Source of the DNA: a virus
Taxonomy: Duplodnaviria > Caudoviricetes
DNA: 64,000 nucleotides
IMG/VR virus record: IMGVR_UViG_3300043598_000016
Location: 64-64,063 of that record
Reading direction: 5' to 3' (one strand)
The position numbers and the translations under genes are program-made. The notes below the pieces were generated by a model that ran no database searches, had not been told where the DNA came from, and saw only the letters and a program-made list of their open reading frames with translations. The number at the start of each line of letters is the position of its first letter. Positions within the stretch are counted from its first letter, which is position 1. Shown piece after piece: positions 24,256-46,095 of this stretch.

Positions 24256-24412
24256 CCCGTCATATGTGCTCATAGATCCCCGGACCCTCACCAGCCCACG
24301 GAAATTTGGGTCACAGTTGTGTTACGATTCCTCAGGTTCTCATCAAAACACTGAAACCAACGGTAATTTTTGAGGTGCACCACCCCCGACCACACGAACG
24401 GAGCCTCACCCC

Positions 24413-27786: not shown

Positions 27787-28031
27787 TGGCCCGTCACGTC
27801 CGCCGCCGCGTCCGGTGGGGCCGCGCCGCCGTGGTCGTTTTCATCGCGCTGGTGCTGTCCTGGGGGCTCACCACGCTGGCCCGCGCGCTCGGCCTGCCCA
27901 CCGTTGGCTGGCTCACCCTGGTGCTGGCCGGCCTGGCTGTCCTGCTGTCCGTGGTGCTGGCCCCCTGGTACCTGCAGCCACCCGAGGATCCCCCGACCGC
28001 CCCGACCCCCAGAGGAGACAGAGACCGATGA
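27783..28031 (+). CDS. membrane protein (2 TM)
   Basis: Two hydrophobic helices. Confidence 0.6.
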   Translation: MMARHVRRRVRWGRAAVVVFIALVLSWGLTTLARALGLPTVGWLTLVLAGLAVLLSVVLAPWYLQPPEDPPTAPTPRGDRDR

Positions 28032-28552: not shown

Positions 28553-28905
28553 GCACCGAGGCGGGCACGATGACCGATCCCGAGGAGCTCGGCGGAACCC
28601 TGGCGCTGCGCACCGCGCGGAGTTTCGCCCACCGCCTCGGCACCCCGGCCTACCCGGTGGGCGCCCGGATCGCGGCGGTGGAGGCCATCCGCGATGAGTG
28701 CGGGGTGTCCGATGGCACCGCCTACGCCGCGCTGCGCCACCTGCAGCGGTGGGGGCGGCTGTCCAGCCACCAGGGCGCCCGCTCGGTGGTGCTGGCCCCG
28801 CCACCGCCGGACCAGGCCGCCGAGCGGGCCCAGGTGCTGGCCGATGCCCGGGCCGCCCACCTAGCCCTCGGCCGACTGATCGAGCAGCTGGCCGAGCTCG
28901 AGTGA
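28549..28905 (+). CDS. GntR-family winged-helix regulator
   Basis: YPVGARI...IRDECGVSDGTAYAALRHLQRWGRLSSHQGARSVV matches the GntR wHTH pattern. Confidence 0.75.
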   Translation: MSTEAGTMTDPEELGGTLALRTARSFAHRLGTPAYPVGARIAAVEAIRDECGVSDGTAYAALRHLQRWGRLSSHQGARSVVLAPPPPDQAAERAQVLADARAAHLALGRLIEQLAELE

Positions 28906-28950
28906 TGGCCGCACCACCCAGCCCACAAGATCAACCCAAGTGAGGAAGTC

Positions 28951-29508
28951 ATGCCACCACGCAAGCGCGCCGCCGATCCAGCCACCAACGGCACCCACCC
29001 GGCCGGGCCGGACCGCCCGGTGCACGCCGAGTACAGCGATGAGCCAACCTGCCCCAAGTGCCTCAGCCAGGAGATCAGCGCCGAGTACCACGCGCCCGGC
29101 ACCCGGCCCGGGCCGGCGGACACCACCGTGGGCCCGGCGCCCGGCATGCCCGAGTGGTTGCGCCGGATCTGTGAGTGCGGGTTCAGCTGGCCGGAGATGT
29201 GCGCGGACTACTACGACCCGTGGGCCCAGCTGATCCGTGACGCGGTCGGGGCCACCGGCGCCATGCCGGACTTTGGCCTGCCCCCGTCCGCGCGGACCAG
29301 CTACCTGGACGCCAGCGGCACGGTGGTGGCCCGGTGGGCGCACTACAACACCGCCGAGCTCGAGGGCGTGTCGCGTTGGGAGAACGTCACCTCGGTGGAG
29401 GTGGTCATCTACCAGCCCGGCGATGCGGCCAACCCGGAGACCGTCATCACCGTGCCGAGCCCATGGACCGCGCCGGCCCAGCCAGCCGCGCCGGCGGCCG
29501 CCCAGTGA
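28951..29508 (+). CDS. hypothetical Zn-ribbon protein
   Basis: CPKC...LRRICECGFSW; GAGGA RBS. Confidence 0.65.
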   Translation: MPPRKRAADPATNGTHPAGPDRPVHAEYSDEPTCPKCLSQEISAEYHAPGTRPGPADTTVGPAPGMPEWLRRICECGFSWPEMCADYYDPWAQLIRDAVGATGAMPDFGLPPSARTSYLDASGTVVARWAHYNTAELEGVSRWENVTSVEVVIYQPGDAANPETVITVPSPWTAPAQPAAPAAAQ

Positions 29509-29921
29509 TCGGCGGGCCCGAGCCGCGCTGTTGCCGGGAGCACCGCTGCCGACGGTCCCAGCCGATCCGGGTATTCCGCTCTGAGCTGACCGGCACCTGG
29601 TATGCGGTCACCGAGTGGGCGGACCGGGGCGGCGGCTCGATCGAGGCCATGCAGAAACACCGGGTACACCCGCACGATGCCGAGCAGCTAGAAACGCTGT
29701 TCGACGCGTGGGAGGCCCGGGCCGAGGGGCGCCGGCAGATCCTGGACGTGCCGCTGCCCAGCCTCGAGCTCGAGGCGGATCCCGCCGGCCCGGCGCCGGT
29801 CTGCCGCTGGTGCGGTGAGCTGCTGCACCAGCGGATCGGCGGGGTCTGGCGCGGCCCGGATGACAAGGTGACATGCGACTCCGCCCAGCACGTCCATGAG
29901 CCCCGGGAGGCCGGCCAGTGA
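29505..29921 (+). CDS. hypothetical protein
   Basis: GTGA overlap; CRWCG...C...HEP. Confidence 0.55.
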   Translation: MIGGPEPRCCREHRCRRSQPIRVFRSELTGTWYAVTEWADRGGGSIEAMQKHRVHPHDAEQLETLFDAWEARAEGRRQILDVPLPSLELEADPAGPAPVCRWCGELLHQRIGGVWRGPDDKVTCDSAQHVHEPREAGQ

Positions 29922-30169
29922 GCGGGCCCGAGCCGGCCCGGCTCGAGGCGCGGATCCGGGAACTGGAGCGGCTGGTGGTGGCGCTGGCCCAGCTGGTCTT
30001 TGACGGCATGCGCGTGCCACCGGGCGCGGACATCACCGAGGCTTCCCTGGTCCTGCGGGCGGCCCGCAACGCGGCCGGCGGCGGTGGCCTGGCCACCCGG
30101 CCCAGCTGGCAGCCCGAGCCGCCGGCGGAACTCCGGGAGCGGTACGGCGGTGATCACTCGTTCGGGTGA
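29918..30169 (+). CDS. hypothetical protein
   Basis: GGAGG RBS; shares RIRELERLVVAL with 28028-28552. Confidence 0.55.
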   Translation: MSGPEPARLEARIRELERLVVALAQLVFDGMRVPPGADITEASLVLRAARNAAGGGGLATRPSWQPEPPAELRERYGGDHSFG

Positions 30170-30266
30170 CGTAACCCTGGGATTCTGTAACGCCCAGCCC
30201 CGGCCATACGACAGGCTCAACGAACCGTAGTTTTCAAGCCCACAACTCAAGGGAGCCTCACCCCTC

Positions 30267-30731
30267 ATGCTCAAGCCACTCGCATTCATCGCCAGCGCCA
30301 TGGTCGTACTCGGCATCGGCCTGGCCGCCTGCTCCACCCCGGCGCCGGCCGAGCCCAAGCCCTACACCGGGTTCACCGGCTACAACGCACCGGCGTACAC
30401 CGCGCCCGAGGTGCCCGCCCAGCTGCCGGCCAGCGCCTACTACACCGCGCCGGTGGCGGCGGCCCCGGCCGAGCCCACCTACCAGGCGGCGGAGGTCTAC
30501 CCGCTGACCGAGGTCACCTCGGGCACCTACCTGGTGGGGTCCGAGATCACCGCCGGCCGCTACGTCACCGAGGGCGCCAGCTACTGCTACTTCGCCCGGT
30601 TGCGCGACCTGGACGGCGGCCTCAGTTCGATCATCGACAACGGCAACCCGCGCGGCCACACCACCATCAAGGTGGGCGCCAAGGATGTCGCGCTCGAGGT
30701 CAAGGGAAACTGCTCGTTCCGCAAGATCTGA
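30267..30731 (+). CDS. lipoprotein
   Basis: Lipobox LAAC; GTYLVGSEITAGRY...CYFARL...IIDN...C domain common in actinobacterial lipoproteins. Confidence 0.82.
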   Translation: MLKPLAFIASAMVVLGIGLAACSTPAPAEPKPYTGFTGYNAPAYTAPEVPAQLPASAYYTAPVAAAPAEPTYQAAEVYPLTEVTSGTYLVGSEITAGRYVTEGASYCYFARLRDLDGGLSSIIDNGNPRGHTTIKVGAKDVALEVKGNCSFRKI

Positions 30732-30782
30732 CCCGCCCCCGCACTACCAGCCCCGACCACCACTCACAGAGAGAGCCTCACA

Positions 30783-31082
30783 ATGATCACCTGGAATGAA
30801 GACAAGCCTGAGTTCACCCCCGGACCGCCGGCGCCGCCGGTAGTCCTCCCGCCCCTCGGCGGCACCGCCACCATGGCGATCGTGTCCCTGACATCCGCAC
30901 TGCTCGGCCTGCTGATCCTGCCCATCCTGCTCGGCCCCCTGGCCGTCATCACCGGGGCGTGCGGGTTTGGCCATGGCAAGCCAGCCAAGGGCGCAGCGAT
31001 GGCCGGGGTGATCATCGGCCTGTTTGACACGGTGGTCGTGGTGACGCGCTTCGCCGCTCTGTCCCAGGCCACCGGTTACTGA
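30783..31082 (+). CDS. DUF4190-like membrane protein
   Basis: MAIVSL...LGPLAVITG...G.AMAGVIIG pattern. Confidence 0.7.
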   Translation: MITWNEDKPEFTPGPPAPPVVLPPLGGTATMAIVSLTSALLGLLILPILLGPLAVITGACGFGHGKPAKGAAMAGVIIGLFDTVVVVTRFAALSQATGY

Positions 31083-31101
31083 TCCCCCGCTCGGCGGGGC
31101 C

Positions 31102-31165
31102 AGCCCCCAGGCTTTATGTTTCGATACAGTAACGCTTACTGTAATCGGGCATAAACCTGGGGGCT
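31102..31165. promoter_or_regulatory. 64-nt imperfect palindrome (hairpin/operator)
   Basis: AGCCCCCAGG-CTTTATG-TTTCGAT-ACAGTAA-CGC-TTACTGT-AATCGGG-CATAAA-CCTGGGGGCT. Confidence 0.7.
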
Positions 31166-31216
31166 TTCGCCGTATTACCTGGTGCACACAGTCCCGACCA
31201 AACAACCGGAGTCACG

Positions 31217-35945: not shown

Positions 35946-36208
35946 GACTGGTAGCCCTCCGGGTAGTCCGGCAACGGCTCATCGCTGTACGCGGGAGCCC
36001 GTACCTGGTGCGGCGCGGCGTAGCCGGCCAGCCCGGGCAGCCCGCCGCCGGCCAGCACACCGATCACGATGGACAGCCACGCGGGCATGCCCGGCACGAT
36101 CGAGGCATCGGTGAGGATCGCGGGCAGCCCGGTCAGCACCAGGCCGACCACCGCCCCGATGAACGCGGACCACTTCACCTTGGGTTCAACCGGCGCGCTC
36201 TCAGCCAT
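35942..36208 (-). CDS. holin
   Basis: VEPKVK...2 TM...AGYAAPH..R actinomycete holin pattern, directly after endolysin. Confidence 0.78.
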   Translation of the reverse strand: MAESAPVEPKVKWSAFIGAVVGLVLTGLPAILTDASIVPGMPAWLSIVIGVLAGGGLPGLAGYAAPHQVRAPAYSDEPLPDYPEGYQS

Positions 36209-36218
36209 TGGAGGCTCC

Positions 36219-36971
36219 CTACTTGTCATCGGTCAACTGGGCGAGGATCCCGCCCAGCAGTGTTTTGATCTCATCCAGCTGCTGCTGAACAGGCTTGGCC
36301 CCCTTGGCGGGGACGGTCGGGGCGTGCCCGGGATCCGGCGCGCCGAGCGCGGCCAGGGTCTGATCGCGGGCATAGCCGAGGTCATCACGGCGCGCCAGGG
36401 TGGCCAGCTCGGCGCGGACTACCGCGCGCACCTCGTCCAGCGTGGCCATGATGTCGTCCCCCTCATCGGTGCTGGCGCCGGTGAGCCGAGCGCGCCAGGC
36501 GTTGTATTTGATCATCGCGTCATCGGCGTACCGCTCGGCCATCGGCCCCGAGCCGTTGTAGCTGCGGAACCCGGTGCGCGTCCCGCCGGCCCGGATCAAC
36601 CCGGCCAGCGCGCGGAACCCGACCGTCACGTTGGCCCGCCAGTCCCAGCAGCCGCCCAGCTGATCGGCCTGGTCCTGGTAGCCGCCGTAGGTCAGCTGGG
36701 CCGGGCCGCAGCCTTGGCGCCCGGCCCGGCCGGCGCGGACCGCCGTGCGGTAGGCCAGGTAGGCGGCTTGGGTGACCACGGCGCCCTTGGCGTAGGTGCC
36801 CGCCGCGACAACCACGGCGTCGCTGCCCCAGACGTTGCGGCCGCCGCCGGTTTCCTTCTGCAGCATGGTGGCGGCGGCGGCCAGGTCCAGACGCTCGGCG
36901 GCGGCCAGCTCCACCACCTCACTGGCCCGCAGGATCCCGCCGGCGGTGAGTACCTGGGCGGCGCTAGGCAT
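36219..36971 (-). CDS. endolysin (lysozyme-like/transglycosylase fold)
   Basis: Catalytic Glu in QKETGG, GPAQLT and YNGSG motifs; precedes holin. Confidence 0.78.
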   Translation of the reverse strand: MPSAAQVLTAGGILRASEVVELAAAERLDLAAAATMLQKETGGGRNVWGSDAVVVAAGTYAKGAVVTQAAYLAYRTAVRAGRAGRQGCGPAQLTYGGYQDQADQLGGCWDWRANVTVGFRALAGLIRAGGTRTGFRSYNGSGPMAERYADDAMIKYNAWRARLTGASTDEGDDIMATLDEVRAVVRAELATLARRDDLGYARDQTLAALGAPDPGHAPTVPAKGAKPVQQQLDEIKTLLGGILAQLTDDK

Positions 36972-37164
36972 CGTCGTCAGCCGTCCATGCCTCGGCGATG
37001 GCCCTGCTCACCGGGTACCACTTGCCACCGTCGTTACCGATGTCGATCGGATCGCCCGGGCCGAGCTTGGCGAACGAGTCCGCCCCGGTGGCGGTGAGCG
37101 TGGCGTACGCGCGCGCGCCACCGATCAGCGCGATGTAGTGCCTCACCTCGGCCGCGTCACCCAT
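36964..37164 (-). CDS. hypothetical protein
   Basis: 66-aa ORF overlapping the endolysin start. Confidence 0.55.
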   Translation of the reverse strand: MGDAAEVRHYIALIGGARAYATLTATGADSFAKLGPGDPIDIGNDGGKWYPVSRAIAEAWTADDDA

Positions 37165-37302
37165 GCTCGGCCCCGAGGTCCACCGGGCCGATGAGCACCT
37201 GCGCCGGGTCGCAACCGGCCCGCTCGGCGAGCTCGGCCACCAGGGCGCCGAGCAGCAGTGCCACCGCCAGCTCAGCCTCGGGGGACAGCTCGGCGCGGCA
37301 CA

Positions 37303-37683
37303 TCAGGACACCACCGCCGGGATCGGCCACGGCGGCACCGGCGCCTTACCTCGGCCGTCCCAACGCACCGCGTAGCCGGCGGCCAGCACCTTGGTGGCCA
37401 CGTCCACCCCATCGACCAGCCCGATACGCCCATCGAACCGGCCCGCGTACTTATCCACCTTGACCGAGTCGATGACCACCGAGGTGCCCACCGGCAGCAG
37501 CGTGGCCAAGTACTCCCGGGCATCCCGCCCACCCGGGGCGGCCAGCTCAATGGCGTTCACCCCGGCCAGGCGACAACTCAGCCGGACCCGGACGTAGAAC
37601 CCCAGGTCCAGGTCAACTATCACGGTGTCTCCGTCGATCACCCGAACCACGGTGGCCGGGAACCGCCAAGCGAGGGGTGCGAT
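37303..37683 (-). CDS. thermonuclease (SNase-like) protein
   Basis: VRVIDGDT..VDLDLGF...RLAGVNA.E...DKYAGR; track start GTG 37650, but GGAGG RBS points to ATC 37683. Confidence 0.85.
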   Translation of the reverse strand: MAPLAWRFPATVVRVIDGDTVIVDLDLGFYVRVRLSCRLAGVNAIELAAPGGRDAREYLATLLPVGTSVVIDSVKVDKYAGRFDGRIGLVDGVDVATKVLAAGYAVRWDGRGKAPVPPWPIPAVVS

Positions 37684-37725
37684 GAGAGCCTCCGGGAATC
37701 CTGGGGAGCGTCCGGGGGTGAGTGA

Positions 37726-37762
37726 GCGCTGGCCCCGGCCGGGGGGCTCACGGGGCCAGCGC
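37726..37762 (-). terminator. stem-loop, putative terminator
   Basis: GCGCTGGCCCCG / CGGGGCCAGCGC 12-bp stem, 30 nt after the 37793 stop. Confidence 0.55.
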
Positions 37763-37792
37763 GGCTCACATTGTTGACCTACCGCCCGAGGG

Positions 37793-38248
37793 CTACTCGG
37801 CCGGGGGCCCGTGGGTGAACTCCGGGTCCTCGGGCGCCGGCACCGGATCCCCGGGGGTGGTGTCGGTGGGATCCGCCGGTACCGGGTTGTCCGGGTCCGC
37901 GCCCATGTCGCGCAGCCTCGAGCCCAGCGCGGTGAAGCCAGCCACCGCCTCGTCTACCTGCGCCTGCAGCGCGGCGGCTTCCTCCGAGCCGGGTTGCGCG
38001 GCGGCCAGCGCGGCGGTCAGCTCCACGATCTTGGCTGTCTGCCGGTCCATCTTGTCGGCCACATCGTTGGTGGCGTCGAACACCTCAGCGACCAGATCCG
38101 TGATCTTGGACAACGTTCTCCCCATCCTTCGCAGTACTCGAGTGATTCGCTGCTCCACCGCCGCCAACTCGCTGCTGGTCGCCGGTCGATTCGGGTGGTA
38201 CTGGTACCACCGGGTGAGCGCCTCGGTGAGCCGTGGGTACTCGGCCAT
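37793..38248 (-). CDS. coiled-coil hypothetical protein
   Basis: AAAGGGG RBS before ATG 38248; heptad pattern. Confidence 0.65.
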   Translation of the reverse strand: MAEYPRLTEALTRWYQYHPNRPATSSELAAVEQRITRVLRRMGRTLSKITDLVAEVFDATNDVADKMDRQTAKIVELTAALAAAQPGSEEAAALQAQVDEAVAGFTALGSRLRDMGADPDNPVPADPTDTTPGDPVPAPEDPEFTHGPPAE

Positions 38249-38498
38249 CGCTGACCCCTTTCTGTCCGGGCACCTCGGCCAGCTCGGCAAACTCTTTGGC
38301 CTGGCTGGCCGCCATATGGATCAGGCATGGCCAACTCACCGCGCGGTTACTGGTGCTGCACGCCCGGCACCGTGAGGCCCGGTAGCGCCGATCCCGCAAG
38401 TGCTGATTCAAGGCCCGGACGTAACGCTGCTCGGCGAGCAGGAACGGCACCAGCTCGGGCACGTGAAAGGAGCTGTCATCGTGCCCGGTACCGGTCAT
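38085..38498 (-). CDS. hypothetical protein (CxxC...WPC)
   Basis: ATG just after the sortase stop; H...CRAC...WPC Zn motif; 3' part overlaps next gene. Confidence 0.55.
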   Translation of the reverse strand: MTGTGHDDSSFHVPELVPFLLAEQRYVRALNQHLRDRRYRASRCRACSTSNRAVSWPCLIHMAASQAKEFAELAEVPGQKGVSDGRVPTAHRGAHPVVPVPPESTGDQQRVGGGGAANHSSTAKDGENVVQDHGSGR

Positions 38499-38499
38499 C

Positions 38500-39111
38500 T
38501 CACCCCTTGGCCACCCGGGCGTACACGATGATCGAGTCCTGATAGGACCGGGCCCGGTGATTGAACGTCCCGCCACAGGTGATCAGAGTAAGGCCGGCCA
38601 CCGGGCTGTCCGCGAAAACTCGATCAAACGGGAACGCTGCCTTGGGCACCTCTTGGCGGCCGGTGATGGTGAACGCGCGCACCAGCCCGGCCCGGTCGGT
38701 GACCTCGATCCGCTGCCCGGTCCGGGCGGCGGCCAGCTGGCCGAACGCTCCCGGCGCGCCGGCCCAGTCCACGTGACCGACCATCACCGCCGGCCCGAGG
38801 TCACCCGGGGCGGGGGAGTAGCAGTACCAGCCGGCCAGCTGCGGCGCCCGATCGATCGGCACCAGGTCCATATCGGACTGGGCGGTCAACCCCACCCGGG
38901 TGACCTCCACCCCGACCCGCTGCGCCGGGAAGTAGAGCCGCATCGGATCCCGGGGCCCGTCCGGTTTCCGGGTGCAGTCCACCGGTAGCGGGGGCCGCCC
39001 AGCCGGATCAGAGCCCGAGCTCGGACCCGGCTGAGCGGCTTGACACCCGGCCAGCGTAGCTAGTGCCAGCAACGCGGTGGCCAGGGCCAGCCCTACGCCT
39101 CGAGCAGCCAT
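38500..39111 (-). CDS. class F sortase (lipoprotein-anchored)
   Basis: AGWY...PG..GPAVMVGHVD, GAF..L, catalytic LTLITCGG.F, SY.D..IVYA; lipobox LAGC. Confidence 0.92.
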   Translation of the reverse strand: MAARGVGLALATALLALATLAGCQAAQPGPSSGSDPAGRPPLPVDCTRKPDGPRDPMRLYFPAQRVGVEVTRVGLTAQSDMDLVPIDRAPQLAGWYCYSPAPGDLGPAVMVGHVDWAGAPGAFGQLAAARTGQRIEVTDRAGLVRAFTITGRQEVPKAAFPFDRVFADSPVAGLTLITCGGTFNHRARSYQDSIIVYARVAKG

Positions 39112-39707
39112 AACCGGGCCGCGTACACCGAGGCGGAAATTCCTACGCCCAGCAGCGCGTACAGCGCCATCGCGGGAGCAATGCTGCGGGTGGCCACGTC
39201 GCCGAGGTTCTCCGCCCCGGTCGGCTGGCGCGAGCCATCACCGGTCTCCGGGGCCCGGCGCGGCCGCAGTGGTACTTGGTAGCCGCCCGAGCTGGGCCGG
39301 CGCGAGCTCGGCGGGCTCGAGGGGGCTGGGCTGATAGTGATGTCCACCTGATCGCGGCAGAGCACGTCCACCCGGTCCTGGGCCAGCACCTGGGCGGCCC
39401 GCAACGAAAGCACCGCGCGGATCTTGACCACGGCCGCGTCATTGTCTGCCTTGGCGGTGCCCAGCAGCGCGGGCAGGCCGAGCCGGCGGGTGAGCTCGTC
39501 CACCGTGGTGGTCAGCCCCTCGGTGGCGGCCAGCGCATCGTTGAGGTCATCGGTCACGGCGCCGAGGTTGACCTGGGCATCGGCGCACACGGTGGCGGTC
39601 AGCGCCGGCGCGGCGTGCGCGAGCGGTACCGGGGTAAGCCAGGCGCCGCCGGCCAGCAGCATCGCGCCGGCGGCCAGCGCGATCGGCGCGGCGAGAGGAT
39701 GTCGCAT
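39093..39707 (-). CDS. secreted sortase substrate (APETG sorting signal)
   Basis: Sec signal ending AHA, helical domain bracketed by two Cys, P/S linker, QVPLRPRRAPETGDG, C-terminal TM helix. Confidence 0.78.
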   Translation of the reverse strand: MRHPLAAPIALAAGAMLLAGGAWLTPVPLAHAAPALTATVCADAQVNLGAVTDDLNDALAATEGLTTTVDELTRRLGLPALLGTAKADNDAAVVKIRAVLSLRAAQVLAQDRVDVLCRDQVDITISPAPSSPPSSRRPSSGGYQVPLRPRRAPETGDGSRQPTGAENLGDVATRSIAPAMALYALLGVGISASVYAARLWLLEA

Positions 39708-39909
39708 GGAGGGCTCCCTAGGTGGTCGGGGATTCACACCGATCTAACGAGAGCCACCCGGCCCCGTTACGCCTGATCAGGCCGGTGGTGGCGACACGGC
39801 GGACCAGCGGGGTGGTAACGGGGCCGGGCGTACTGCGCCTAACTCAGCCGGCGGACTCGGGCCCGGCTGCCCAACGGGGAGCGGAACACTGAGAATGCTG
39901 GCAGTGTTC

Positions 39910-41070
39910 TCAGCCCCCGAGCAATCCGCCGAGCAGCCCGCCATCGGTGGGCGGTGGCGCTGTTTCGGCTGGTGGTCCGTCCCCGGCGGCCGGCGGGGCT
40001 TCTGTGGTCGGTGCCGGCTGTTCGGCGGTAGGACTGGGCTGTTCGGCGGTAGGGGCCGGTGGCTCGGGCGACCCCCCACCTGATCCGCCCGAGCCGCCGG
40101 GGCATGAGCTGTCACCGGCCGGCGCGTGATCCTCGGCGCCGTCCGTGTAGACCACCACCGATTCGCACTCCCCGGCGTTGTTGCGTTGGAAGCGCGGCCC
40201 GGTGACGATGCCCCGCCCGGGCGCGCCGGGCGCCCCGTTCTCCCCGGCTGGCCCCCGGAACCGGTCCAGGTTGGCGGTGACATAGGCCGCGATGGCGGCG
40301 GCCACCTGCGCCTCGGTGACCACGCCCTGCGGCCCCATCGGCCCCCGGTACAGCTCAGGGTTGGCCTCGAGCACCGCCCGGGCGGCCAGGGTGACCGCCT
40401 CGAGTGAGGGGCGGTAGATGGCCGGGTGGGTGACGAAATAGTCCGCGATCAGCCGGGTGACCTGGGCATCGGTCGGCCCGGTGTCGATCGCGCTGGGCAC
40501 CTGATTGGCCTTGGCCGCCACGTCGCACGCGCCCCGGGCCTGCAGCTCATGGGCCAGCTGATCGGATCCCGAGCACATGGCCAGCACCTGGGACTTGACC
40601 GCGCCATCTTGGGCCTGGGCGTTCTCCACCGAGGTGGTGGTGGCCGGGCCGAGCGCGAACGCGGACAGCACGCCGAGGCCCAGCAACGCGGCGCCGGCGG
40701 CCATCACCAGCCAGCCCGGGAAATCCGCTGTCTTGACCTTGGCCCAGAGCCCGGCGGCGGCGGTGCTAATCCCAGTCCGTGCGGCGCTCACGCGGGAGGG
40801 GCCAGTCTTCTTCCGGCTCGCGGAGTCGGTGCCGCGAGGTTGCGGCGGCTGCTGGTGGCTGCTGAACCGCCGGCGGCGCGCCTTGGGATCCACCCTCGGG
40901 CGCCACGGCTGTTCGGGGATCCGCTCGGTGACCAGGGTCTGCTCGGGTGACTCGGACCTCGGCGCCGAGCTGGCCGACTGTTCGCTCTTGGCTGAGTCGG
41001 CTGACCGGTCTTTCCGGTGCCGCCTCGGGCGCGCGGTCGACTCTGTCCCGTTCGGGGTCTTGGCTGTCAT
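39910..41070 (-). CDS. membrane-anchored protein with collagen-like repeats
   Basis: One TM helix, Cys pairs, GPMGPQG and GPAGENGAPGAPGRG, Pro-rich tail. Confidence 0.7.
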   Translation of the reverse strand: MTAKTPNGTESTARPRRHRKDRSADSAKSEQSASSAPRSESPEQTLVTERIPEQPWRPRVDPKARRRRFSSHQQPPQPRGTDSASRKKTGPSRVSAARTGISTAAAGLWAKVKTADFPGWLVMAAGAALLGLGVLSAFALGPATTTSVENAQAQDGAVKSQVLAMCSGSDQLAHELQARGACDVAAKANQVPSAIDTGPTDAQVTRLIADYFVTHPAIYRPSLEAVTLAARAVLEANPELYRGPMGPQGVVTEAQVAAAIAAYVTANLDRFRGPAGENGAPGAPGRGIVTGPRFQRNNAGECESVVVYTDGAEDHAPAGDSSCPGGSGGSGGGSPEPPAPTAEQPSPTAEQPAPTTEAPPAAGDGPPAETAPPPTDGGLLGGLLGG

Positions 41071-41308
41071 CTTCGTCCCCTAGCTCGGGCATCGGCGGGG
41101 CGGTGAGCCCGTTGGCCGCCAGCAGCACCCGGACCCGGAATCCCCACCTAGTGACTAACGCGGCGTAGTCACGGAGGTCACGCACCTCCTCGGCCAGCTC
41201 CCGCTGCCGCTTGGACAGCCGGGCGCCCACGAACGCCATCACCCCGCCCAGGCCGGCCACCAGGGTGGTGAGCGCGGTCATCAGCTGAGTGAGATCCGTG
41301 GTGGTCAC
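40766..41308 (-). CDS. membrane protein (TM + coiled coil; possible lysis accessory)
   Basis: N-terminal TM then coiled coil; 3' 305 nt overlap the next gene. Confidence 0.6.
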   Translation of the reverse strand: MTTTDLTQLMTALTTLVAGLGGVMAFVGARLSKRQRELAEEVRDLRDYAALVTRWGFRVRVLLAANGLTAPPMPELGDEDDSQDPERDRVDRAPEAAPERPVSRLSQERTVGQLGAEVRVTRADPGHRADPRTAVAPEGGSQGAPPAVQQPPAAAATSRHRLREPEEDWPLPRERRTDWD

Positions 41309-41312
41309 TCGA

Positions 41313-42035
41313 TCATTGTGGGCGGCGGGTGGGGCGGCGGGTGGGCCGGCGGGTGGGCCGAGGTGGCCGGCGGTCATCGGACCCGGCCGGGTCCGGGCCC
41401 AGCAGCCGCTCGGCTAGGGCCTCGGCGGACTCCCGGGGCGGGATACCCGGGGTGTCCGTGGCGGCCTGCTCGGTGGCCGCGTCCAGGTCCACCAGCTGCA
41501 CCGTGTTGCGCCCGGCCCGGGCCGCCCGTAGGGCGTTGCGCCGGCGGCGGGTGAACTCCCGTTTAACCCGCATGTGATCCTCACTGACCGGCGCGGTGTC
41601 CCGAATGAATTGCAGCGGGTTCGCCGTGTCGGAGTTGGCGAGCCCGGTGGCTTCCCCAATGATCGCTCCGGGGGTGCGCCCAGGCCGACCGGTCAGCTTG
41701 CCTTTGCCGCGCCGCGCCTTGACCACCTTGAGCGCCGCTTTGCGGGCATCAGCGATGGTGGGTGCGTTGAGCAGGTGCTCGGGGTCGGCCAGCTGCGCCT
41801 CGCTGCTGGTGGCCAGGTACCGCTCATAGATCACCAGGTTGAGCACGTCATCCCACCCGACATCGGTGGATAGGTCGATGTCGTACTCGGCGGCCCGGGA
41901 CTCGAACGTGTCCGTGGGCATGATCCGCGCCATCATCTCGCTGGTGCCATCGTCATGGGTCAGCTCGAGGGTGAGGACATAGACCTGGATCGAGCCCAGG
42001 GTGGACAGTTCCGCGTGGTGCACCGTGACATCCAT
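41313..42035 (-). CDS. hypothetical tail-region protein
   Basis: 240 aa, coupled to the tail protein stop; RAAEYDID motif. Confidence 0.7.
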   Translation of the reverse strand: MDVTVHHAELSTLGSIQVYVLTLELTHDDGTSEMMARIMPTDTFESRAAEYDIDLSTDVGWDDVLNLVIYERYLATSSEAQLADPEHLLNAPTIADARKAALKVVKARRGKGKLTGRPGRTPGAIIGEATGLANSDTANPLQFIRDTAPVSEDHMRVKREFTRRRRNALRAARAGRNTVQLVDLDAATEQAATDTPGIPPRESAEALAERLLGPDPAGSDDRRPPRPTRRPTRRPTRRPQ

Positions 42036-43741
42036 CAGGTCAGCGGCATGCTGATTTCGGTGAGCGTGCGGAACGCCCAGCAGCGGATCTTGATTACCTT
42101 GCCCCCGGTGGGTAGCGCCGGGGTCTGGCCGACCGCCGCCGGGCTGGCCCCGTTGTTGTTCAGCCCGAACCGCACGCCGAACCCGGTGAGTGTGTTGGTC
42201 TCATCCCGGATCGAGTACATCGGGTTATTTGAATCGACCAGCCCGCATGACATTACCGGCGCCATGGCGCTGGCCATGGTGATGCCATAGTCCATGCTCA
42301 CCCCGGTGATCGCGGCGGCGGAGTTGTTGACCACCGAGATGTTCATCACCCAGACAGCCGTGTTGGCGTAAGGGAACGTGTAGTTCTCCCAGAATCCGCG
42401 CAGCTGCAGCAGCCCATCATCCCAGCTGAACAGCCCGATCTCGGCGCCGGCCTGGGTGGTGATACCGAAGTGCGCGGAGTCCTCGGCGAGGCGGACCCGG
42501 CCGCCTCGGGGGGTGGCGTCGTTGGCCGCGTCGGTGAGCCCCAGGAACGCGTCATCCGGACTCATCACCAGCCGGGGCGTGACGTTGGTCTGTACCGAGT
42601 TGATGGCCCGAATTTCAAGATTCACATCGTCCGGGAAGTCAAGCGGCTGATACGAAAACACCCGGGCGTATTTGGTCTCCCCGAGGCTGGGAAAGAATCG
42701 GATCTCGTTATCCGGGCCGGACAGCAGAATGCGCCGGCCCGAACTGCCGGTCTGCACCGACACATCGGCCAGCACCTCCCCGGCGCGGATCTTGTCGGCG
42801 GTGATCGCGCCGGCCGCAATGGCGCCGGCGGTGACCGAGTTGACGGCGATCTTCTCCGCCGTGATGGCCAGCGCCAGGATTTTCTCGGCGGTCACCGCGC
42901 CGGCGGTGAGGTGCTCGGCCGAGATGGCCTCGGCCGCGATGTTGATGGCCTGGATGGCCTGCGCCGCGATGGCCAGCGCGGTCACCGAACCGGCGCCGAG
43001 GTGCCCGGCCGCGATGGCCCCGGCGATCAACTGCTCTCCGCCCACGCTGTTGGCGGCCAGGTGGGCCAGGTCTATCACCTGCTCGCCGATCTGGATGGAG
43101 CCCACCGCGCCGGCGGCGATCTTGGCCTGGGTGACCGCGTCGGTGGCCAGCTGCAGCTCGCCGATGGCGCCCTCGAGAATGTCCGCGCCGACCACCGAGG
43201 TGGGCGTGGCGGTGACCGGCTCGCTGTAATCGGACTCGGTGCCGGACATGTTCACCGAGGACAGCCAGATCCGGTACGGCTTGGCCTCGAGCCCGGAAAT
43301 CACCAGCATGCTCGGGTTGAGCCCGATCACGTTACCGACTACCACGCCTTCCTCAACCGGGCCCTCACCACCCGGGATGCCCTTGGCCAGCCACACGTTG
43401 GTGTGGCTGTAGTCCCACATCCAGCGCCCGGTGCTGGGCCCGTGTGTCTCCACCTTGAGCGTGCCGAACCCGGGCACCACGGTGGGCGCGGCCGGGATGA
43501 TCGGCGGGGTGGGATTGTTGACCACCCGGCCCCCGACGTACGACCCGTCCTCCTGCTTGCCGATGATCGCCCTAGGGTTGCCGTTGGCGTCGTAGACCAC
43601 CATCGAGCCGTCCTCGATGGACGACTGGCCGAGCTGGGTGGTGTTGGCGCCGAGCTCGAGGGATTCCACCCGGCGCTGTAGCCGGGCCAGCTCGGCGGCC
43701 ATCCCGGCGGTGGCCCTGGCATCAGCCTCAGCCGTGGTCAT
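42035..43741 (-). CDS. minor tail / central fibre protein
   Basis: FN3-like domain followed by 10-aa (I/L)AAGA(V/I)TAxK repeats. Confidence 0.8.
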   Translation of the reverse strand: MTTAEADARATAGMAAELARLQRRVESLELGANTTQLGQSSIEDGSMVVYDANGNPRAIIGKQEDGSYVGGRVVNNPTPPIIPAAPTVVPGFGTLKVETHGPSTGRWMWDYSHTNVWLAKGIPGGEGPVEEGVVVGNVIGLNPSMLVISGLEAKPYRIWLSSVNMSGTESDYSEPVTATPTSVVGADILEGAIGELQLATDAVTQAKIAAGAVGSIQIGEQVIDLAHLAANSVGGEQLIAGAIAAGHLGAGSVTALAIAAQAIQAINIAAEAISAEHLTAGAVTAEKILALAITAEKIAVNSVTAGAIAAGAITADKIRAGEVLADVSVQTGSSGRRILLSGPDNEIRFFPSLGETKYARVFSYQPLDFPDDVNLEIRAINSVQTNVTPRLVMSPDDAFLGLTDAANDATPRGGRVRLAEDSAHFGITTQAGAEIGLFSWDDGLLQLRGFWENYTFPYANTAVWVMNISVVNNSAAAITGVSMDYGITMASAMAPVMSCGLVDSNNPMYSIRDETNTLTGFGVRFGLNNNGASPAAVGQTPALPTGGKVIKIRCWAFRTLTEISMPLT

Positions 43742-46095
43742 TCGGTCACCTCCGGGGGGTCGATGGGCGCGCCGTACTGGAATTGCTCGGACCGGCGGAT
43801 CTGCGCGGCGACCCGGTTGGCGTCCGGCTCCCAGGTGTAGGAAACGAAGCGGTGCCAGAGCTCCACGTGCCCGGCGTACGGGATGTCCCCGAGGATCAGC
43901 CCGTCATCGCCCACCGTGTAGCTGCCCACCGGGGCATTGGGGTGGTCAGCGTCCAGGATGATCTCCCCGATGGTGATCGCGGCGCGGCGGCGCAGCAGCT
44001 CGTCCCCGGCGGCCGCGTTGGTGCCGGCCACCGTGCCCAGGGTCTGATCGGTGACCACCGCCACCCGGCGGATCCGGTGCGGGTCGGCCCGGCCGGCGTA
44101 GCCGCGCACAGCGGCCCGGCCTTCCCCCTTGCCCCGGTACATGACCTGGCTGGCGTAGGCGCCGGGCTCCTCCCGCAGTGGGAACGCGTCGAGCATATTT
44201 TCATCCAGCGCAAACCTGAGCTCGAACCGCTTCCTACCGATCCTCGGGTAGCCGAGCTCGATCACCTGCAGCACGGCGGTGCGGTCCGCGTTCCACCGGG
44301 GCCGCTCCACGTAGTCGATGAAAAACGTCTTACACAGGTTGTCGATCTCCCGGCCACAGTCGATGTCGGAGTACCAACTCAGCACGTAGGGCTTGGCCTC
44401 CACAATGCGCGGCGTGCGGATCTTCTTAGAGCCGTCGCTCATGTCGATGGTGATCACACCGGTTTCCGGGTCGGTGTAGCTGGCCACCTCGTAGGGCTCC
44501 TCGGGTACCTCGGGCTCCTCGGGCGGATCCTCCGGGTCTGGCTCGTCCTCGGGGTCCACCGGGTCCGGCGGCGGGGCCGGCTCGGTGGTGTCGTCGTAGA
44601 GCAGCTCACCGGTGTCCGGGTCAAAGTCGTGATAGGCCGGCACGCCGAGGCGCCCTTTCGAGGCCACGTCGGGGGACACCATCACGTCCAGCCGGGCGTC
44701 CGGGTAGCTGGTGAGGTGCGCCCAGATATCCCGGATCACGTCGCACGGGTCAGCCTCGAGATAGGACTCATCGCCCAGGAACGGCATGTTCTGCGCGTAG
44801 CCGCTCACGCCGATGGCCTCGAGCGCGTAGGTTTCCCCGTCCACCCCGGACGGCTGCAGGATGCCCGAGGCGAGGATCTGCCCGTCCTGCTCGGCGTGAA
44901 TCCAGGTGGCCCACGGATCCAGGTTGAGCTCTTTGAGCCCCTTATACTCGGGGCGGAGATCGGCCCGGATCACGGTGGGCCCACTCAGTGTGTAGGTGAT
45001 CGCCGGGTTGATCAGCGGCAGATCCCAGTCAAGCCAACGGTGGGTGCGGATGTCCTGGGCGATGAACCGCAGTGGCGCCCGGGCGGCCCGGCGCGGCGGG
45101 CTGGTCAGCAGCTCCACGTCCGGCGGTGGGTAGTCGATGTCCCCGGCGATCGAGGCGTACGGGATCGAGCGGGGCGCCATCACGGTCAGCGCCTCGGCGC
45201 CGGCCAGCTGCAGGTGCACCCCGGCCGTGCTGGACACCGGGGCCAGCGGGGTGAGCGCCTCGGCGGTGCTCGAGCGGGAGCCGGTGGGAGTGGATACCGG
45301 GTGCGTCGCGGTGATCGTTTTCATCACCTTATAGGCCGCTGGGCAGCTGCTCACCGGGCCGGCGGCGGTCACCGTGGCGCCGGTCATCCGCTTGCCCGCG
45401 CCGGCCGGCACCGAGCTCACCGGCCCGGTGTTGCTGACCGTGGCACCCGAGCGCAGCGGCGGGGCGAACCCGGTATTGAACCCGGCGCCGGCGAATTCCA
45501 TCCAGCCGGGCTGAGTGGTCACCTGGGCGCTGCCGACCACCAAGTCCGAGCCGGTGGCGCCGTAGTACAGCGTGCCGGTGTAGCTGGTGCTGGCGGTGTT
45601 GCCGGCCCGGTAGCCGATCTCGAGCACCACCCGATCGCCGGGCTGCGCGGCCACCGGGGTGATCGAGCCGGCGCCGATGATGACCTGCACCCCGAACGCG
45701 CTAGTGGAGATGGTCGGGGCCGGCCACTCGGCGCCGCCGCCCAAGGCCAGGCTGGTCAGCGCGCCGCGCACCACGTCCGTGCTGCCCACCGTGACGAACA
45801 TGTGTATCTGAACGATCATGTTGGCGGCCGCGTTGGATTCCAGGCAGCCGAACGTGAGCGTCATCGCGCCGTCGAGGGTGGCCGCGTTGTTCAGCGGGGT
45901 GGAGACGAACCGGCGCAGCAGGGTGGCCCAATTGTTGGTGGTGGAGGTCTCCGCCTTGGCCGCCGTGGTGCCGGCGCCCAGCTTGCGCGCCTGCAGCGAG
46001 GACGCGCCGGTCAGCGTCTTGTCATTCCAGGTGCCCCGGATGGTGGCCGGGGTGTAGCCGGCGGCGGTGTTGGTGAGGTAGAGGCGCAGCGCCAT
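43738..46095 (-). CDS. minor tail protein (beta N-domain fused to baseplate-hub-like domain)
   Basis: C-terminal ~450 aa resemble actinophage hub proteins (LDWDLPL...LSGP, LGYPRIGR, GKGEG); synteny. Confidence 0.75.
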   Translation of the reverse strand: MALRLYLTNTAAGYTPATIRGTWNDKTLTGASSLQARKLGAGTTAAKAETSTTNNWATLLRRFVSTPLNNAATLDGAMTLTFGCLESNAAANMIVQIHMFVTVGSTDVVRGALTSLALGGGAEWPAPTISTSAFGVQVIIGAGSITPVAAQPGDRVVLEIGYRAGNTASTSYTGTLYYGATGSDLVVGSAQVTTQPGWMEFAGAGFNTGFAPPLRSGATVSNTGPVSSVPAGAGKRMTGATVTAAGPVSSCPAAYKVMKTITATHPVSTPTGSRSSTAEALTPLAPVSSTAGVHLQLAGAEALTVMAPRSIPYASIAGDIDYPPPDVELLTSPPRRAARAPLRFIAQDIRTHRWLDWDLPLINPAITYTLSGPTVIRADLRPEYKGLKELNLDPWATWIHAEQDGQILASGILQPSGVDGETYALEAIGVSGYAQNMPFLGDESYLEADPCDVIRDIWAHLTSYPDARLDVMVSPDVASKGRLGVPAYHDFDPDTGELLYDDTTEPAPPPDPVDPEDEPDPEDPPEEPEVPEEPYEVASYTDPETGVITIDMSDGSKKIRTPRIVEAKPYVLSWYSDIDCGREIDNLCKTFFIDYVERPRWNADRTAVLQVIELGYPRIGRKRFELRFALDENMLDAFPLREEPGAYASQVMYRGKGEGRAAVRGYAGRADPHRIRRVAVVTDQTLGTVAGTNAAAGDELLRRRAAITIGEIILDADHPNAPVGSYTVGDDGLILGDIPYAGHVELWHRFVSYTWEPDANRVAAQIRRSEQFQYGAPIDPPEVTE

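What the first reader, a model, noticed from the sequence alone, without database searches (positions are those of the whole stretch)
38500..39731. Phage-encoded class F sortase with its own adjacent APETG substrate
Seen: 38500-39111 has the sortase catalytic His (VGHVD) and Cys (TLITCGG), plus a lipobox (LAGC). The overlapping upstream gene 39093-39707 has a signal peptide, a two-Cys helical domain, a Pro/Ser linker, QVPLRPRRAPETGDG and a C-terminal TM helix. The pair sits between the tail genes and the endolysin/holin. It is preceded by the phage's own GCCCCGACCA-like leader motif (39723-39731), so it appears wired into phage gene control. Known: class F sortases are actinobacterial chromosomal enzymes often encoded beside xPxTG substrates; I do not recognise them as normal phage cargo. 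Inference: the phage covalently displays or polymerises its own protein on the host wall, for example for superinfection exclusion, receptor masking, lysis assistance or adhesion. The substrate lacks a strong basic tail after the TM helix, and the usual DN near the sortase C-terminus reads DS.
Basis: partly seen in the sequence, partly recalled or inferred. Interest (0 to 1): 0.85.

Follow-up and report, generated by a model that had tools for sequence, protein, structure and literature searches.

The report
Soil phage sortase with its own substrate
An uncultivated soil phage of high-GC actinobacteria carries a cell-wall "stapling" enzyme (a sortase) coupled to the one secreted protein built to be stapled, so it probably fixes a protein of its own to the wall of the cell it infects.

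Summary
38500-39111(-) encodes a sortase: Pfam PF04203 at 53.1 bits, best NCBIfam match class F, sortase fold, His113 and Cys179, and a lipobox. The gene overlapping it upstream, 39093-39707(-), encodes a signal peptide, a two-Cys helical hairpin, a Pro/Ser linker, RAPETGDG and a C-terminal membrane helix.

The window is a 64-kb IMG/VR phage record. The pair lies between tail-fibre genes and a putative lysin.

It is not a recent host capture. The sortase sits with 9 metagenomic relatives on a long, fully supported branch, at no more than 48% identity to any genomic (cellular) sortase.

The substrate family has only about a dozen members, on contigs of the same lengths as the sortase clade's. 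Three further loci show the substrate gene, two of them with the sortase gene next to it.

In 65 of 102 class F loci the upstream gene ends in the same x-[T/A]-G-x-G tag, against 159 of 4340 control ORFs. A complex model puts Thr155-Gly156 on Cys179/His113 (0.70; best control 0.00).

The phage's CCCCGACCA leader precedes the substrate gene in 4 of 4 clade loci.

Caveats: the NCBIfam score is below cut-off, no conserved Arg is found, and the usual Asn is Ser. The biological role is untested.

A 2026 preprint describes sortase B modules in huge phages. Three class F sortase queries found nothing in 50,697 deposited phages. This scan noted similar cassettes on other DNA.

The parts
39723..39731 (-). 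Start-associated leader motif CCCCGACCA, 15 nt upstream of the substrate ATG. The GGGAG ribosome-binding site lies at 39718-39714.
   Evidence: There are 15 exact copies in the window against 1.59 expected, and 0 of 100 shuffles reach 15. Most copies lie 10-35 nt before start codons of genes at 13-31 kb. The same motif precedes the substrate gene in L002, L003 and L104, so 4 of 4 clade loci have it.
39708..39909 (-). A 202-nt intergenic gap upstream of the substrate gene. It has conserved blocks and a hairpin (arms CGCCCGGCCCCGTTAC / GTAACGGGGCCGGGTG).
   Evidence: Read from the sequence. The RNA fold is not significant overall (z -1.07). The 3' arm and the TCGTTAGATCGGTGT block are conserved in the window, L002 and L104. 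No consensus sigma-70 promoter or intrinsic terminator was found on this strand.
39093..39707 (-). Sortase substrate gene (204 aa). Residues 1-32 are the signal peptide (AHA|A). Residues about 34-118 form a helical hairpin with Cys41 and Cys117 and a conserved DELTRRLGL loop. Residues about 121-147 are a Pro/Ser linker. The tag R151-A-P-E-T155-G156-D-G158 follows (APETG = nt 39254-39240). Residues about 176-198 are a membrane helix, followed by the short tail RLWLLEA.
   Evidence: ORF and translation. In the alignment of 11 sequences, C41, C117, P149, R151, A152, P153, E154, G156 and G158 are invariant, and T155 is Ala in 2. The AF2 model has mean pLDDT 59.7 with helices 34-63, 86-118 and 176-203. 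It has no Pfam, NCBIfam, PHROG or PADLOC family. Only 8 representatives were found among 1.84 billion proteins.
38500..39111 (-). Class-F-type sortase gene (203 aa). It has a lipoprotein signal peptide with lipobox LAGC (residues 20-23, nt 39054-39043) and a catalytic domain at about residues 56-200. His113 is at nt 38775-38773 and Cys179 at nt 38577-38575. Asp192-Ser193 (nt 38538-38533) stand where relatives have Asp-Asn.
   Evidence: PF04203 at 53.1 bits. NF033748 is the best match at 136.9 bits, against a cut-off of 166. The AF2 model has pLDDT 75.2 and pTM 0.70. Foldseek against the PDB gave 127 matches at E<=0.001, and every row listed down to rank 47 is a sortase. H113 and C179 are invariant in 16 of 16 sequences. 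All 8 clade members that have their N-terminus show a lipobox.
39093..39111 (-). A 19-nt overlap between the end of the substrate gene and the start of the sortase gene, which suggests translational coupling.
   Evidence: Read from the sequence. L002 has the same 19-nt overlap (substrate ends at 10019, sortase starts at 10001).
39910..41070 (-). Upstream neighbour kept with the cassette. It is a 386-aa membrane protein with a basic N-terminus, one hydrophobic helix, a Gly/Pro-rich exterior part and the C-terminal end GLLGGLLGG. Its function is unknown.
   Evidence: ORF. It has no Pfam or PHROG hit. Homologues lie directly upstream of the cassette in L002 (60% identity) and L003 (41% identity).
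38085..38498 (-). Downstream neighbour, a small Cys-containing protein that starts 1 nt after the sortase stop. Its function is unknown, and the frame looks doubtful in its 3' part.
   Evidence: Read from the sequence. It has 48% identity over 80 aa in L002 and no PADLOC hit.

Best explanation
This is a phage-borne, dedicated sortase-substrate pair of the class F type found in actinobacteria.

Proposed sequence of events:
1. The substrate is exported through Sec. Its signal peptide is cut after AHA, and it is held in the membrane by its C-terminal helix.
2. The sortase is exported as a lipoprotein and sits on the outer face of the membrane.
3. Cys179, with His113, attacks the Thr155-Gly156 bond of the RAPE-T|G-DG tag.
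4. The acyl-enzyme is resolved by an amine of the host's wall precursor. This leaves the 12-kDa disulfide-stapled helical hairpin, on its Pro/Ser stalk, covalently fixed to the peptidoglycan of the infected cell.

The pair is translated as a unit (19-nt overlap). It is headed by the same start-associated CCCCGACCA leader that otherwise marks the phage's non-structural genes.

Shown here: the fold, the His and Cys residues, the tag, the pairing rule, conservation, the phage context and the leader.

Inferred: cleavage at T|G, attachment to the wall, and the biological purpose. For the purpose my best guess is surface marking that blocks further phage adsorption to infected cells or to debris.
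For: Sortase identity:
- Pfam 53.1 bits; NCBIfam class F is the best match.
- Foldseek gave 127 PDB matches at E<=0.001, and every row listed down to rank 47 is a sortase.
- His113 and Cys179 are invariant in 16 of 16 sequences.

Pairing rule:
- In 65 of 102 loci with a class F sortase, the same-strand ORF just upstream carries x[T/A]G[GDFAY]G in its last 65 residues. Only 159 of 4340 other ORFs of the same loci do.
- Chromosomal examples read ..KGAPETGGG.. followed by a membrane helix and RRRR.
- The window's tag RAPETGDG is invariant apart from T/A at position 155 and D/G at position 157 in 11 sequences.
[quoted passage not shown] This comes from a scan of 175 ORF frames and from reading the translations.

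Complex model:
- Median score 0.70, best of 3 controls 0.00. That mark was reached by 58 of 80 solved complexes and 2 of 110 mismatched pairs.
- Runs agree in at least 77% of contacts, and partner pLDDT is at least 52.
- The contacts with the least expected error include H113 and C179 with T155 and G156.
- Solved sortase-peptide complexes exist, so this pass shows likeness and may come from memory.

Conservation:
- The sortase has 9 close homologues at 54-79% identity. The substrate has 10.
- L002 and L003 show the two genes adjacent. In the short locus L104 only the substrate gene and its leader were examined.
- dN/dS is 0.38-0.72.

Phage context and age:
- Portal, capsid and tape-measure genes; terminase; tail fibre.
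- L002 is syntenic from the tape measure to beyond the lysin.
- The window clade of 10 rows sits on a branch of length 1.26 with SH-aLRT 100, apart from 97 other class F rows.

Leader.
Against: - The NCBIfam class F score of 136.9 bits is below the curated cut-off of 166.
- The canonical third catalytic residue was not found. No Arg is invariant after Cys179, and two clade members have no Arg between the Cys and strand beta-8. In the wider family 33 of 112 lack one, so this may be a family trait rather than a defect.
- The Asn of Y-x-[D/G]-N, present in 98 of 112 relatives, is Ser in all 10 clade members.
- The tag is separated from the membrane helix by about 20 residues. The window's own tail has one Arg and one Glu.
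- No experiment, no RNA data and no cultured relative exist.
- The acceptor of class F sortases is unknown. In Actinoplanes a quadruple class F mutant had no phenotype (PMC13251363, passages).
- The substrate model is of low confidence (pLDDT 59.7).
Confidence: 0.65

Rival explanations
1. The sortase works mainly as a processing or ligating enzyme with a different outcome from wall anchoring. It could cut the hairpin protein off its membrane anchor and release it (hydrolysis). Alternatively it could join the hairpin to another exported phage or host protein, for example the conserved 386-aa membrane protein encoded just upstream.
For: - The acceptor of class F sortases is unknown (reviews PMC8225981 and PMC11231552, passages).
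- A membrane protein ending GLLGGLLGG is kept directly upstream in the window, L002 and L003.
- 48 of the 65 tagged upstream proteins in related loci have no membrane anchor. The system therefore does not always need membrane retention.
Against: - No pilin-type Lys motif or N-terminal Gly acceptor was recognised.
- The AAGDG string near the end of the 386-aa protein is absent from the L002 and L003 homologues.
- Transpeptidation to wall precursors is the outcome established for the best-studied sortase classes (general knowledge; reviews).
Confidence: 0.15
2. The enzyme is a catalytically weakened or dead sortase-like protein (no conserved Arg, Ser for Asn). It only binds the tag, acting as a chaperone, retention factor or regulator of the hairpin protein.
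For: - No Arg is conserved after the catalytic Cys, and DS replaces DN in 10 of 10 clade members.
- The score is below the NCBIfam cut-off.
- The clade lies on a long branch.
Against: - His113, Cys179 and the TCGG and GHVD blocks are invariant across the clade and its chromosomal relatives.
- Loss of Arg is common in the whole family, at 33 of 112. That argues for a different third residue rather than for decay.
- The scissile Thr-Gly is conserved.
Confidence: 0.1
3. The cassette is a passenger picked up from a host chromosome. It has no role in the phage's own life cycle, or it benefits only a lysogen.
For: - The design (upstream tagged protein plus lipobox sortase) is the same as in chromosomal loci of Pseudonocardiaceae and other actinobacteria.
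- Accessory genes often sit between tail and lysis genes (general knowledge).
Against: - Identity to any genomic (cellular) sortase is at most 48%. The clade is separated from them by a branch of 1.26 with SH-aLRT 100.
- The pair is kept in related contigs whose shared genes are 41-79% identical.
- It carries the phage's own leader in 4 of 4 loci.
- It is packed without gaps into the downstream operon.
- No integrase (PF00589, PF00239) lies in the 64 kb, although the record is only 74% complete.
- Only 1 of the best 80 genome loci belongs to the clade, and it is a 5.6-kb MAG contig with the same phage genes.
Confidence: 0.1

Closest known systems
Chromosomal class F sortases of Actinomycetota (NCBIfam NF033748 / InterPro IPR042001) with their upstream tagged partners. 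The only enzyme characterised is P. acnes SrtF (Di Girolamo et al. 2019, known to me only through citations in PMC13251363, PMC8225981 and PMC11231552).
   Same: - Sortase fold, GHVD and TCGG blocks, and the invariant Lys of PKxxFP.
- A lipobox-like N-terminus in 54 of 102 sampled loci, by a crude pattern with no control.
- An upstream partner ending in x-x-T-G-x-G, with or without a membrane helix and basic tail.
   Different: - Encoded in a phage.
- At most 48% identical to any genomic (cellular) sortase, and on its own long branch.
- Ser where the family has Asn.
- Score below the curated cut-off.
- The partner's hairpin domain has almost no relatives.
Sortase B plus upstream substrate modules of gut huge phages (Yuan and Chen, bioRxiv 10.64898/2026.10.24.761521, Oct 2026; abstract and passages read, supplements not seen).
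   Same: - A phage-encoded sortase.
- The gene immediately upstream encodes a signal peptide, a sorting motif (PXTG there), a hydrophobic segment and a charged tail.
- The proposed purpose is display of phage proteins on the host surface.
   Different: - Those are class B enzymes with a His-Cys-Arg triad, in phages of over 200 kb from the animal digestive system whose sortases are closest to those of Bacillota.
- This one is a class-F-type lipoprotein enzyme without a recognisable Arg, in a phage of about 64-85 kb from soil. Its host is probably in the Pseudonocardiaceae.
Other class-F-type sortase cassettes on IMG/VR contigs (L084, L092, L095-L100).
   Same: - A sortase preceded by a secreted protein.
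- L084 has a minor tail protein upstream and L096 has an endolysin downstream.
- Lipobox on the sortase.
   Different: - 31-40% identity, forming a separate cluster in the tree.
- Their partners stop a few residues after GGVxTGGGPA and often carry an Excalibur-like DxDxDGxxCE segment.
- No profile similarity to the window's partner (hhalign probability 0.4%).
Class E sortases with LAXTG substrates (Streptomyces SrtE1/E2 and chaplins; T. fusca SrtE structures 9iok and 9m5i).
   Same: - Actinobacterial enzymes that anchor proteins to the wall.
- Structural matches at E about 6e-9.
   Different: - The NCBIfam class E score is only 14 bits.
- The tag here is A-P-E-T-G, not L-A-x-T-G.
Phage lipoproteins and membrane proteins that block reinfection or mask receptors, for example T5 Llp (recalled from general knowledge, not tested here).
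   Same: An envelope-exposed phage product made during infection. This is the functional analogy behind the proposed role.
   Different: Those act non-covalently on a receptor. Here a covalent graft to the wall is proposed, and no receptor is known.

Membership tests
Sortase superfamily (PF04203, peptidase C60) | Eight-stranded sortase beta-barrel fold | tested here: met
   The AF2 model has pLDDT 75.2 and pTM 0.70. Foldseek against the PDB gave 127 matches at E<=0.001. The best is 2xwg SrtC-1 at 1.4e-9, and every row listed down to rank 47 is a sortase.
Sortase superfamily (PF04203, peptidase C60) | Pfam score above the gathering cut-off | tested here: met
   53.1 bits against a cut-off of 26.6, E 3.4e-14, residues 90-199.
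Sortase superfamily (PF04203, peptidase C60) | Catalytic His and Cys | tested here: met
   His113 (VGHVD) and Cys179 (LITCGG) are invariant in 16 of 16 aligned sequences. In the complex model they contact T155 and G156.
Sortase superfamily (PF04203, peptidase C60) | Catalytic Arg of the His-Cys-Arg triad, on strand beta-8 | tested here: inconclusive
   No Arg is invariant after Cys179. The position after Tyr190 is Q, T or V in the clade and Arg in only 23 of 112 homologues. 33 of 112 have no Arg between the Cys and beta-8. I could not inspect the model's coordinates to find a substitute residue.
Class F sortase (NCBIfam NF033748) | Score at or above the curated cut-off | tested here: not met
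   136.9 bits against a cut-off of 166. It is nevertheless by far the best model: class GN scores 17.2 bits and class E 14 bits.
Class F sortase (NCBIfam NF033748) | Y-x-[D/G]-N signature at the start of the last strand | tested here: not met
   Asn is present in 98 of 112 homologues. The window and all 9 close relatives have D-S.
Class F sortase (NCBIfam NF033748) | Placement inside the class F radiation in a tree | tested here: inconclusive
   The clade joins the 97 other class F rows only through a branch of length 1.26. No other sortase class was included as an outgroup, so inside and sister positions cannot be told apart.
Class F sortase (NCBIfam NF033748) | Upstream partner gene with a C-terminal x-x-T-G-x-G tag. 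This is an empirical rule derived here, not a published definition. | tested here: met
   65 of 102 loci against 159 of 4340 control ORFs. The window's tag is RAPETGDG.
Sortase substrate (cell-wall sorting signal) | N-terminal signal peptide | tested here: inconclusive
   An n/h/c pattern ending A-H-A is conserved in the alignment. No signal-peptide predictor was available.
Sortase substrate (cell-wall sorting signal) | Sorting motif followed by a hydrophobic segment | tested here: met
   APETG at residues 152-156 and a helix at 176-203 in the model. The spacer of about 20 residues is longer than in the chromosomal examples.
Sortase substrate (cell-wall sorting signal) | Positively charged tail | tested here: inconclusive
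   The window ends RLWLLEA, with one Arg and one Glu. Most relatives end GRLWLRGR.
Sortase substrate (cell-wall sorting signal) | Cleavage and wall linkage by the cognate sortase | not testable with these tools
   Only a structure-prediction pass is available: 0.70 against a best control of 0.00.

The most novel reading that the evidence does not exclude
A lineage of soil actinophages makes, under the leader it otherwise uses for non-structural genes, a self-sufficient 'wall-marking' kit. The kit is an Arg-less lipoprotein sortase that covalently grafts a small phage hairpin protein onto the peptidoglycan of the infected cell. This would close the surface to further phage adsorption, either as covalent superinfection exclusion or as protection of progeny from debris. 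The same pair would also give the first defined recognition tag, ([A/V]-x-T|G-x-G), for the uncharacterised class F sortases of actinobacteria.
Probability: 0.25. Interest if true: 0.8.

Novelty: new variant of a known kind. Interest (0 to 1): 0.6.

Why it matters
Class F is the least understood sortase class. Two reviews state that its role is unclear and that no structure is known, and a quadruple mutant in Actinoplanes had no phenotype.

A minimal two-gene phage module with one obvious substrate is a clean handle for three questions:
- what the recognition tag of the class is;
- what its acceptor is;
- how the chemistry works without the canonical Arg.

For phage biology, it extends the just-reported idea of phage-encoded sortases from class B in gut huge phages to ordinary-sized soil actinophages. 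It also suggests that viruses covalently remodel the wall of Gram-positive hosts.

The module could be useful as an orthogonal ligation pair.

Tried and rejected
1. DNA similarity. blastn of 36001-44000 against deposited phages found only matches of 3% or less of the query, in the tail-fibre repeats.

2. PDB by sequence. phmmer of the sortase found nothing at E<=0.01. The fold search was needed.

3. Fold of the substrate. The best match was Z 8.3 to Esx-type helical hairpins, within the range the tool calls non-specific for helical models. The Atlas structure rows have TM below 0.3. The Atlas feature hit, 'LPxTG domain-containing' at 0.86, is a lead only.

4. Homology between the window's substrate family and the partners of the second viral cluster. 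hhalign gave probability 0.4%. The similar layout (signal peptide, Cys, helices, Cys, linker, tag) is therefore an analogy at present. Distant representatives P0133-P0136 share the layout and the APETG or SPETG tag, and P0134 has an Excalibur-like segment. Their contexts could not be looked up.

5. Promoter or terminator for the cassette. No consensus site lies on the minus strand. The leader fold has z -1.07.

6. Defence-system models (PADLOC). Nothing beyond noise for 8 proteins of the module.

7. Integrase. None was found. The record is 74% complete, so the lifestyle stays open.

8. Expression. No RNA holder was listed. Only 2 DNA soil runs from one study were found, possibly the source of this DNA.

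9. Metagenome scan with the substrate profile.

10. Other possible substrates in the window. Tag-like strings occur in the tail fibre (NTLTGFG) and in the 386-aa protein (PPAAGDG). The first was rejected because I saw no signal-peptide-like N-terminus in its translation. The second was rejected because the string is not conserved.

11. L083 and L091 have FtsK/SpoIIIE-like genes next to the sortase locus. I read these as conjugative elements and did not count them as phages. L085 is grouped with them only by its sortase and partner sequences.

12. The paper on P. acnes SrtF is not held. What I say about it comes from citing papers.

13. Supplements are closed. The preprint's supplementary tables of phage sortases were not seen. 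Its text says all 24 are class B.
Full report
WHAT IS THERE

The window is almost the whole of a 64,063-bp IMG/VR virus record. The record is linear, and CheckV estimates it to be 74% complete. It is about 70% G+C throughout and has no tRNA genes. It encodes:
- an SPP1-type portal, an E-type major capsid protein and a tape-measure protein;
- a 1635-aa primase-helicase-exonuclease-PolA fusion and an SNF2 helicase;
- a large terminase;
- tail-fibre proteins.

No tyrosine or serine integrase was found.

On the minus strand the gene order runs as follows:
1. tail fibres (43738-46095 and 42035-43741);
2. three genes of unknown function, two of them for membrane proteins;
3. the substrate gene (39093-39707);
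4. the sortase gene (38500-39111);
5. a small Cys-containing protein;
6. a coiled-coil protein;
7. a nuclease-like gene;
8. a 250-aa putative lysin;
9. a small two-helix membrane protein.

The lysin has SLT-like look-alikes only as a lead.

THE ENZYME

The 203-aa product matches Pfam Sortase at 53.1 bits against a cut-off of 26.6. Its best NCBIfam model by a wide margin is class F, but its 136.9 bits fall short of the 166-bit cut-off.

An AlphaFold model built on 16 sequences has pLDDT 75.2 and pTM 0.70. Foldseek found 127 solved chains at E<=0.001, and every row listed down to rank 47 is a sortase. His113 and Cys179 are invariant.

The N-terminus is a lipoprotein signal peptide with lipobox LAGC. 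All 8 clade members that have their N-terminus show a lipobox. A crude pattern finds lipobox-like N-termini in 54 of 102 related loci, chromosomal ones included. The lipoprotein anchor is therefore a trait of this branch of class F and not a phage invention.

Two points depart from the textbook:
- No Arg is conserved after the catalytic Cys. In 112 homologues the expected position is Arg in only 23, and 33 have no Arg at all in that segment.
- The family's conserved Asn (Y-x-D/G-N, 98 of 112) is Ser in the window and its 9 close relatives.

The reviews I read state that all sortases use His-Cys-Arg (PMC8225981, passage). This family, and the phage clade most of all, is chemically unexplored.

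THE PARTNER

The upstream 204-aa protein has no family in Pfam, NCBIfam, PHROGs or PADLOC. A profile search of 1.84 billion representatives found only 8 proteins.

Its alignment of 11 sequences shows the following layout:
- a signal peptide ending AHA;
- two invariant cysteines at the ends of a helical hairpin, with a strongly conserved DELTRRLGL loop;
- a variable Pro/Ser linker;
- an almost invariant P-R/K-R-A-P-E-T/A-G-D/G-G;
- a conserved membrane helix (MALYALLSVG).

WHY I CALL IT THE SUBSTRATE

I fetched 102 loci that encode class F-type sortases: 80 from genomes, and 22 IMG/VR loci. I then asked what lies just upstream on the same strand.
- In 65 of the 102 loci the upstream ORF carries x[T/A]G[GDFAY]G within its last 65 residues. 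Only 159 of 4340 other ORFs in the same loci do.
- 17 of the 65 continue with a hydrophobic segment and a basic tail. An Actinokineospora example reads ..KGAPETGGG..ALRRRRVTN.
- The other 48 stop a few residues after the tag. An Amycolatopsis example reads ..KGGVETGFGGMAA.

The window's RAPETGDG followed by a helix is the first type.

A complex prediction was run on the catalytic domain with the last 70 residues of the partner. The median score was 0.70 against 0.00 for the best of three controls. That mark was reached by 58 of 80 solved complexes and 2 of 110 mismatched pairs. Runs agreed in at least 77% of contacts, and partner pLDDT was at least 52. Among the contacts with the least expected error are His113 and Cys179 with Thr155 and Gly156, the expected scissile bond. 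Solved sortase-peptide complexes exist, so this pass shows likeness and does not prove binding.

IS IT A PHAGE GENE, AND HOW OLD IS IT?

The sortase has 9 close homologues at 54-79% identity over the full length. Identity then drops to 47% or less, over the catalytic domain only, in chromosomal class F enzymes.

- L002, a 56-kb IMG/VR contig, is syntenic with the window from the tape measure through the cassette to beyond the lysin, at 43-79% protein identity.
- L003, a 5.6-kb contig binned with a Pseudonocardia MAG, has the same membrane protein, partner, sortase and lysin. This is the only host hint, and it is a weak one.

In a tree of 107 rows the window clade of 10 rows sits on a branch of 1.26 substitutions per site with SH-aLRT 100, apart from all 97 other rows. 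dN/dS between clade members is 0.38-0.72. The cassette is therefore old, constrained and phage-associated. It is not a recent capture.

CONTROL

The motif CCCCGACCA occurs 15 times in the window against 1.59 expected, and 0 of 100 shuffles reach 15. About 11 copies lie 10-35 nt upstream of start codons, nearly all of them genes of the 13-31 kb replication and early-type arms.

In the structural and lysis arm, the only copy followed by a ribosome-binding site and a start codon is the one before the substrate gene. It stands at the end of a 202-nt gap.

The motif and a neighbouring TCGTTAGATCGGTGT block are kept before the substrate gene in L002 and L104, and the motif is kept in L003 too. Downstream there is no gap: the next gene starts 1 nt after the sortase stop.

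I read this as a sign that the pair can be expressed like the non-structural genes. This is inference; there are no RNA data.

HOW COMMON, AND WHAT IS IN PRINT

tblastn with three class F sortases (the window's, L098's and L084's) found nothing in 50,697 deposited phage records. No PHROG matched.

In IMG/VR a profile scan found 22 loci. I scanned ten flanking proteins from nine of these loci against PHROGs:
- L084 has a minor tail protein upstream.
- L096 has an endolysin downstream.
- L083 and L091 have FtsK/SpoIIIE-like genes, so they are probably conjugative elements.
- The other six proteins matched no tail or lysis family (a second L096 protein matched nothing).

A second viral cluster (L084, L090, L092, L095-L100; support 81) has tail-less partners ending GGVxTGGGPA, often with an Excalibur-like segment. 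These partners are not detectably homologous to the window's partner.

In the literature library, six phrases for phage or viral sortases found only one paper. 'Sortase' together with 'actinobacteriophage' found two unrelated ones.

The one paper is a preprint of October 2026. It reports 24 sortase B genes with upstream PXTG partners in gut huge phages. [quoted passage not shown]

Earlier notes of this scan describe similar class F cassettes on other phage contigs, and the leader motif on this window. I used them as leads only.

VERDICT

The molecular reading is well supported by computation: a dedicated, phage-borne, class-F-type sortase with its own tagged partner. Membership of class F in the strict sense is borderline.

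Wall anchoring is the most likely outcome. The purpose is open. My best guess, held with low confidence, is surface marking against further adsorption.

It is a new variant of a kind that has only just entered the literature.

Noticed in passing
window 13187-31200, both strands; also 39723-39731: The start-associated motif (G)CCCCGACCA has 15 exact copies against 1.59 expected. It lies 10-35 nt upstream of about 11 start codons, mostly in the non-structural arms. A TAG or TAC-containing element often lies 6-12 nt further upstream. It could be a phage-specific promoter or transcript-start signal.
   Followed up: partly
window 39910-41377 (-); L002 7765-9193: A 386-aa membrane protein and a roughly 200-aa protein with an N-terminal membrane helix are read from frames that overlap by about 300 nt, in both the window and L002. 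The longer protein ends in GLLGGLLGG. Proteins ending GGLLDG, GELLGE or GGLLDGG hold the same position in L098, L100 and L102.
   Followed up: partly
L010, L015, L021, L024 and many other Amycolatopsis loci; L084, L092, L095-L100: In 48 of the 65 tagged loci, the protein upstream of the class F sortase stops 3-17 residues after the tag. Examples are ..KGGVETGFGGMAA and ..GGVATGGGPA. It therefore has no membrane anchor, which makes it a tail-less sortase partner.
   Followed up: partly
L083 and L091 (IMG/VR contigs): These 'viral' contigs carry FtsK/SpoIIIE-like genes next to a sortase with a 420-aa partner ending ..RVDTGLGGLAK or ..RIDTGLGGTA. They look like actinomycete conjugative elements rather than phages. 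L085 has the same kind of sortase and partner, but its flanking genes were not scanned.
   Followed up: partly
window 61343-63043 (-) and 18322-19911 (+): There are two genes with large-terminase matches in one genome: phrog_19179 at E 4e-145 and phrog_38 at E 9.6e-45.
   Followed up: no
window 1872-6779 (-): A single 1635-aa ORF joins prim-pol, a DUF5906 helicase-type domain, a 3'-5' exonuclease and family A DNA polymerase domains.
   Followed up: no
substrate residues 68-83 (window about 39506-39459, -): The most conserved part of the mature partner is the loop T..ELTRRLGL..L.G between the two helices. The model predicts this loop with low confidence, and it may be the functional site of the displayed protein.
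   Followed up: no
sortase Lys157 (window 38643-38641, -): The Lys of PKAAFP is invariant in 16 of 16 class F-type sequences and touches Ala152 of the tag in the complex model. It is a candidate for part of the role of the missing Arg.
   Followed up: no
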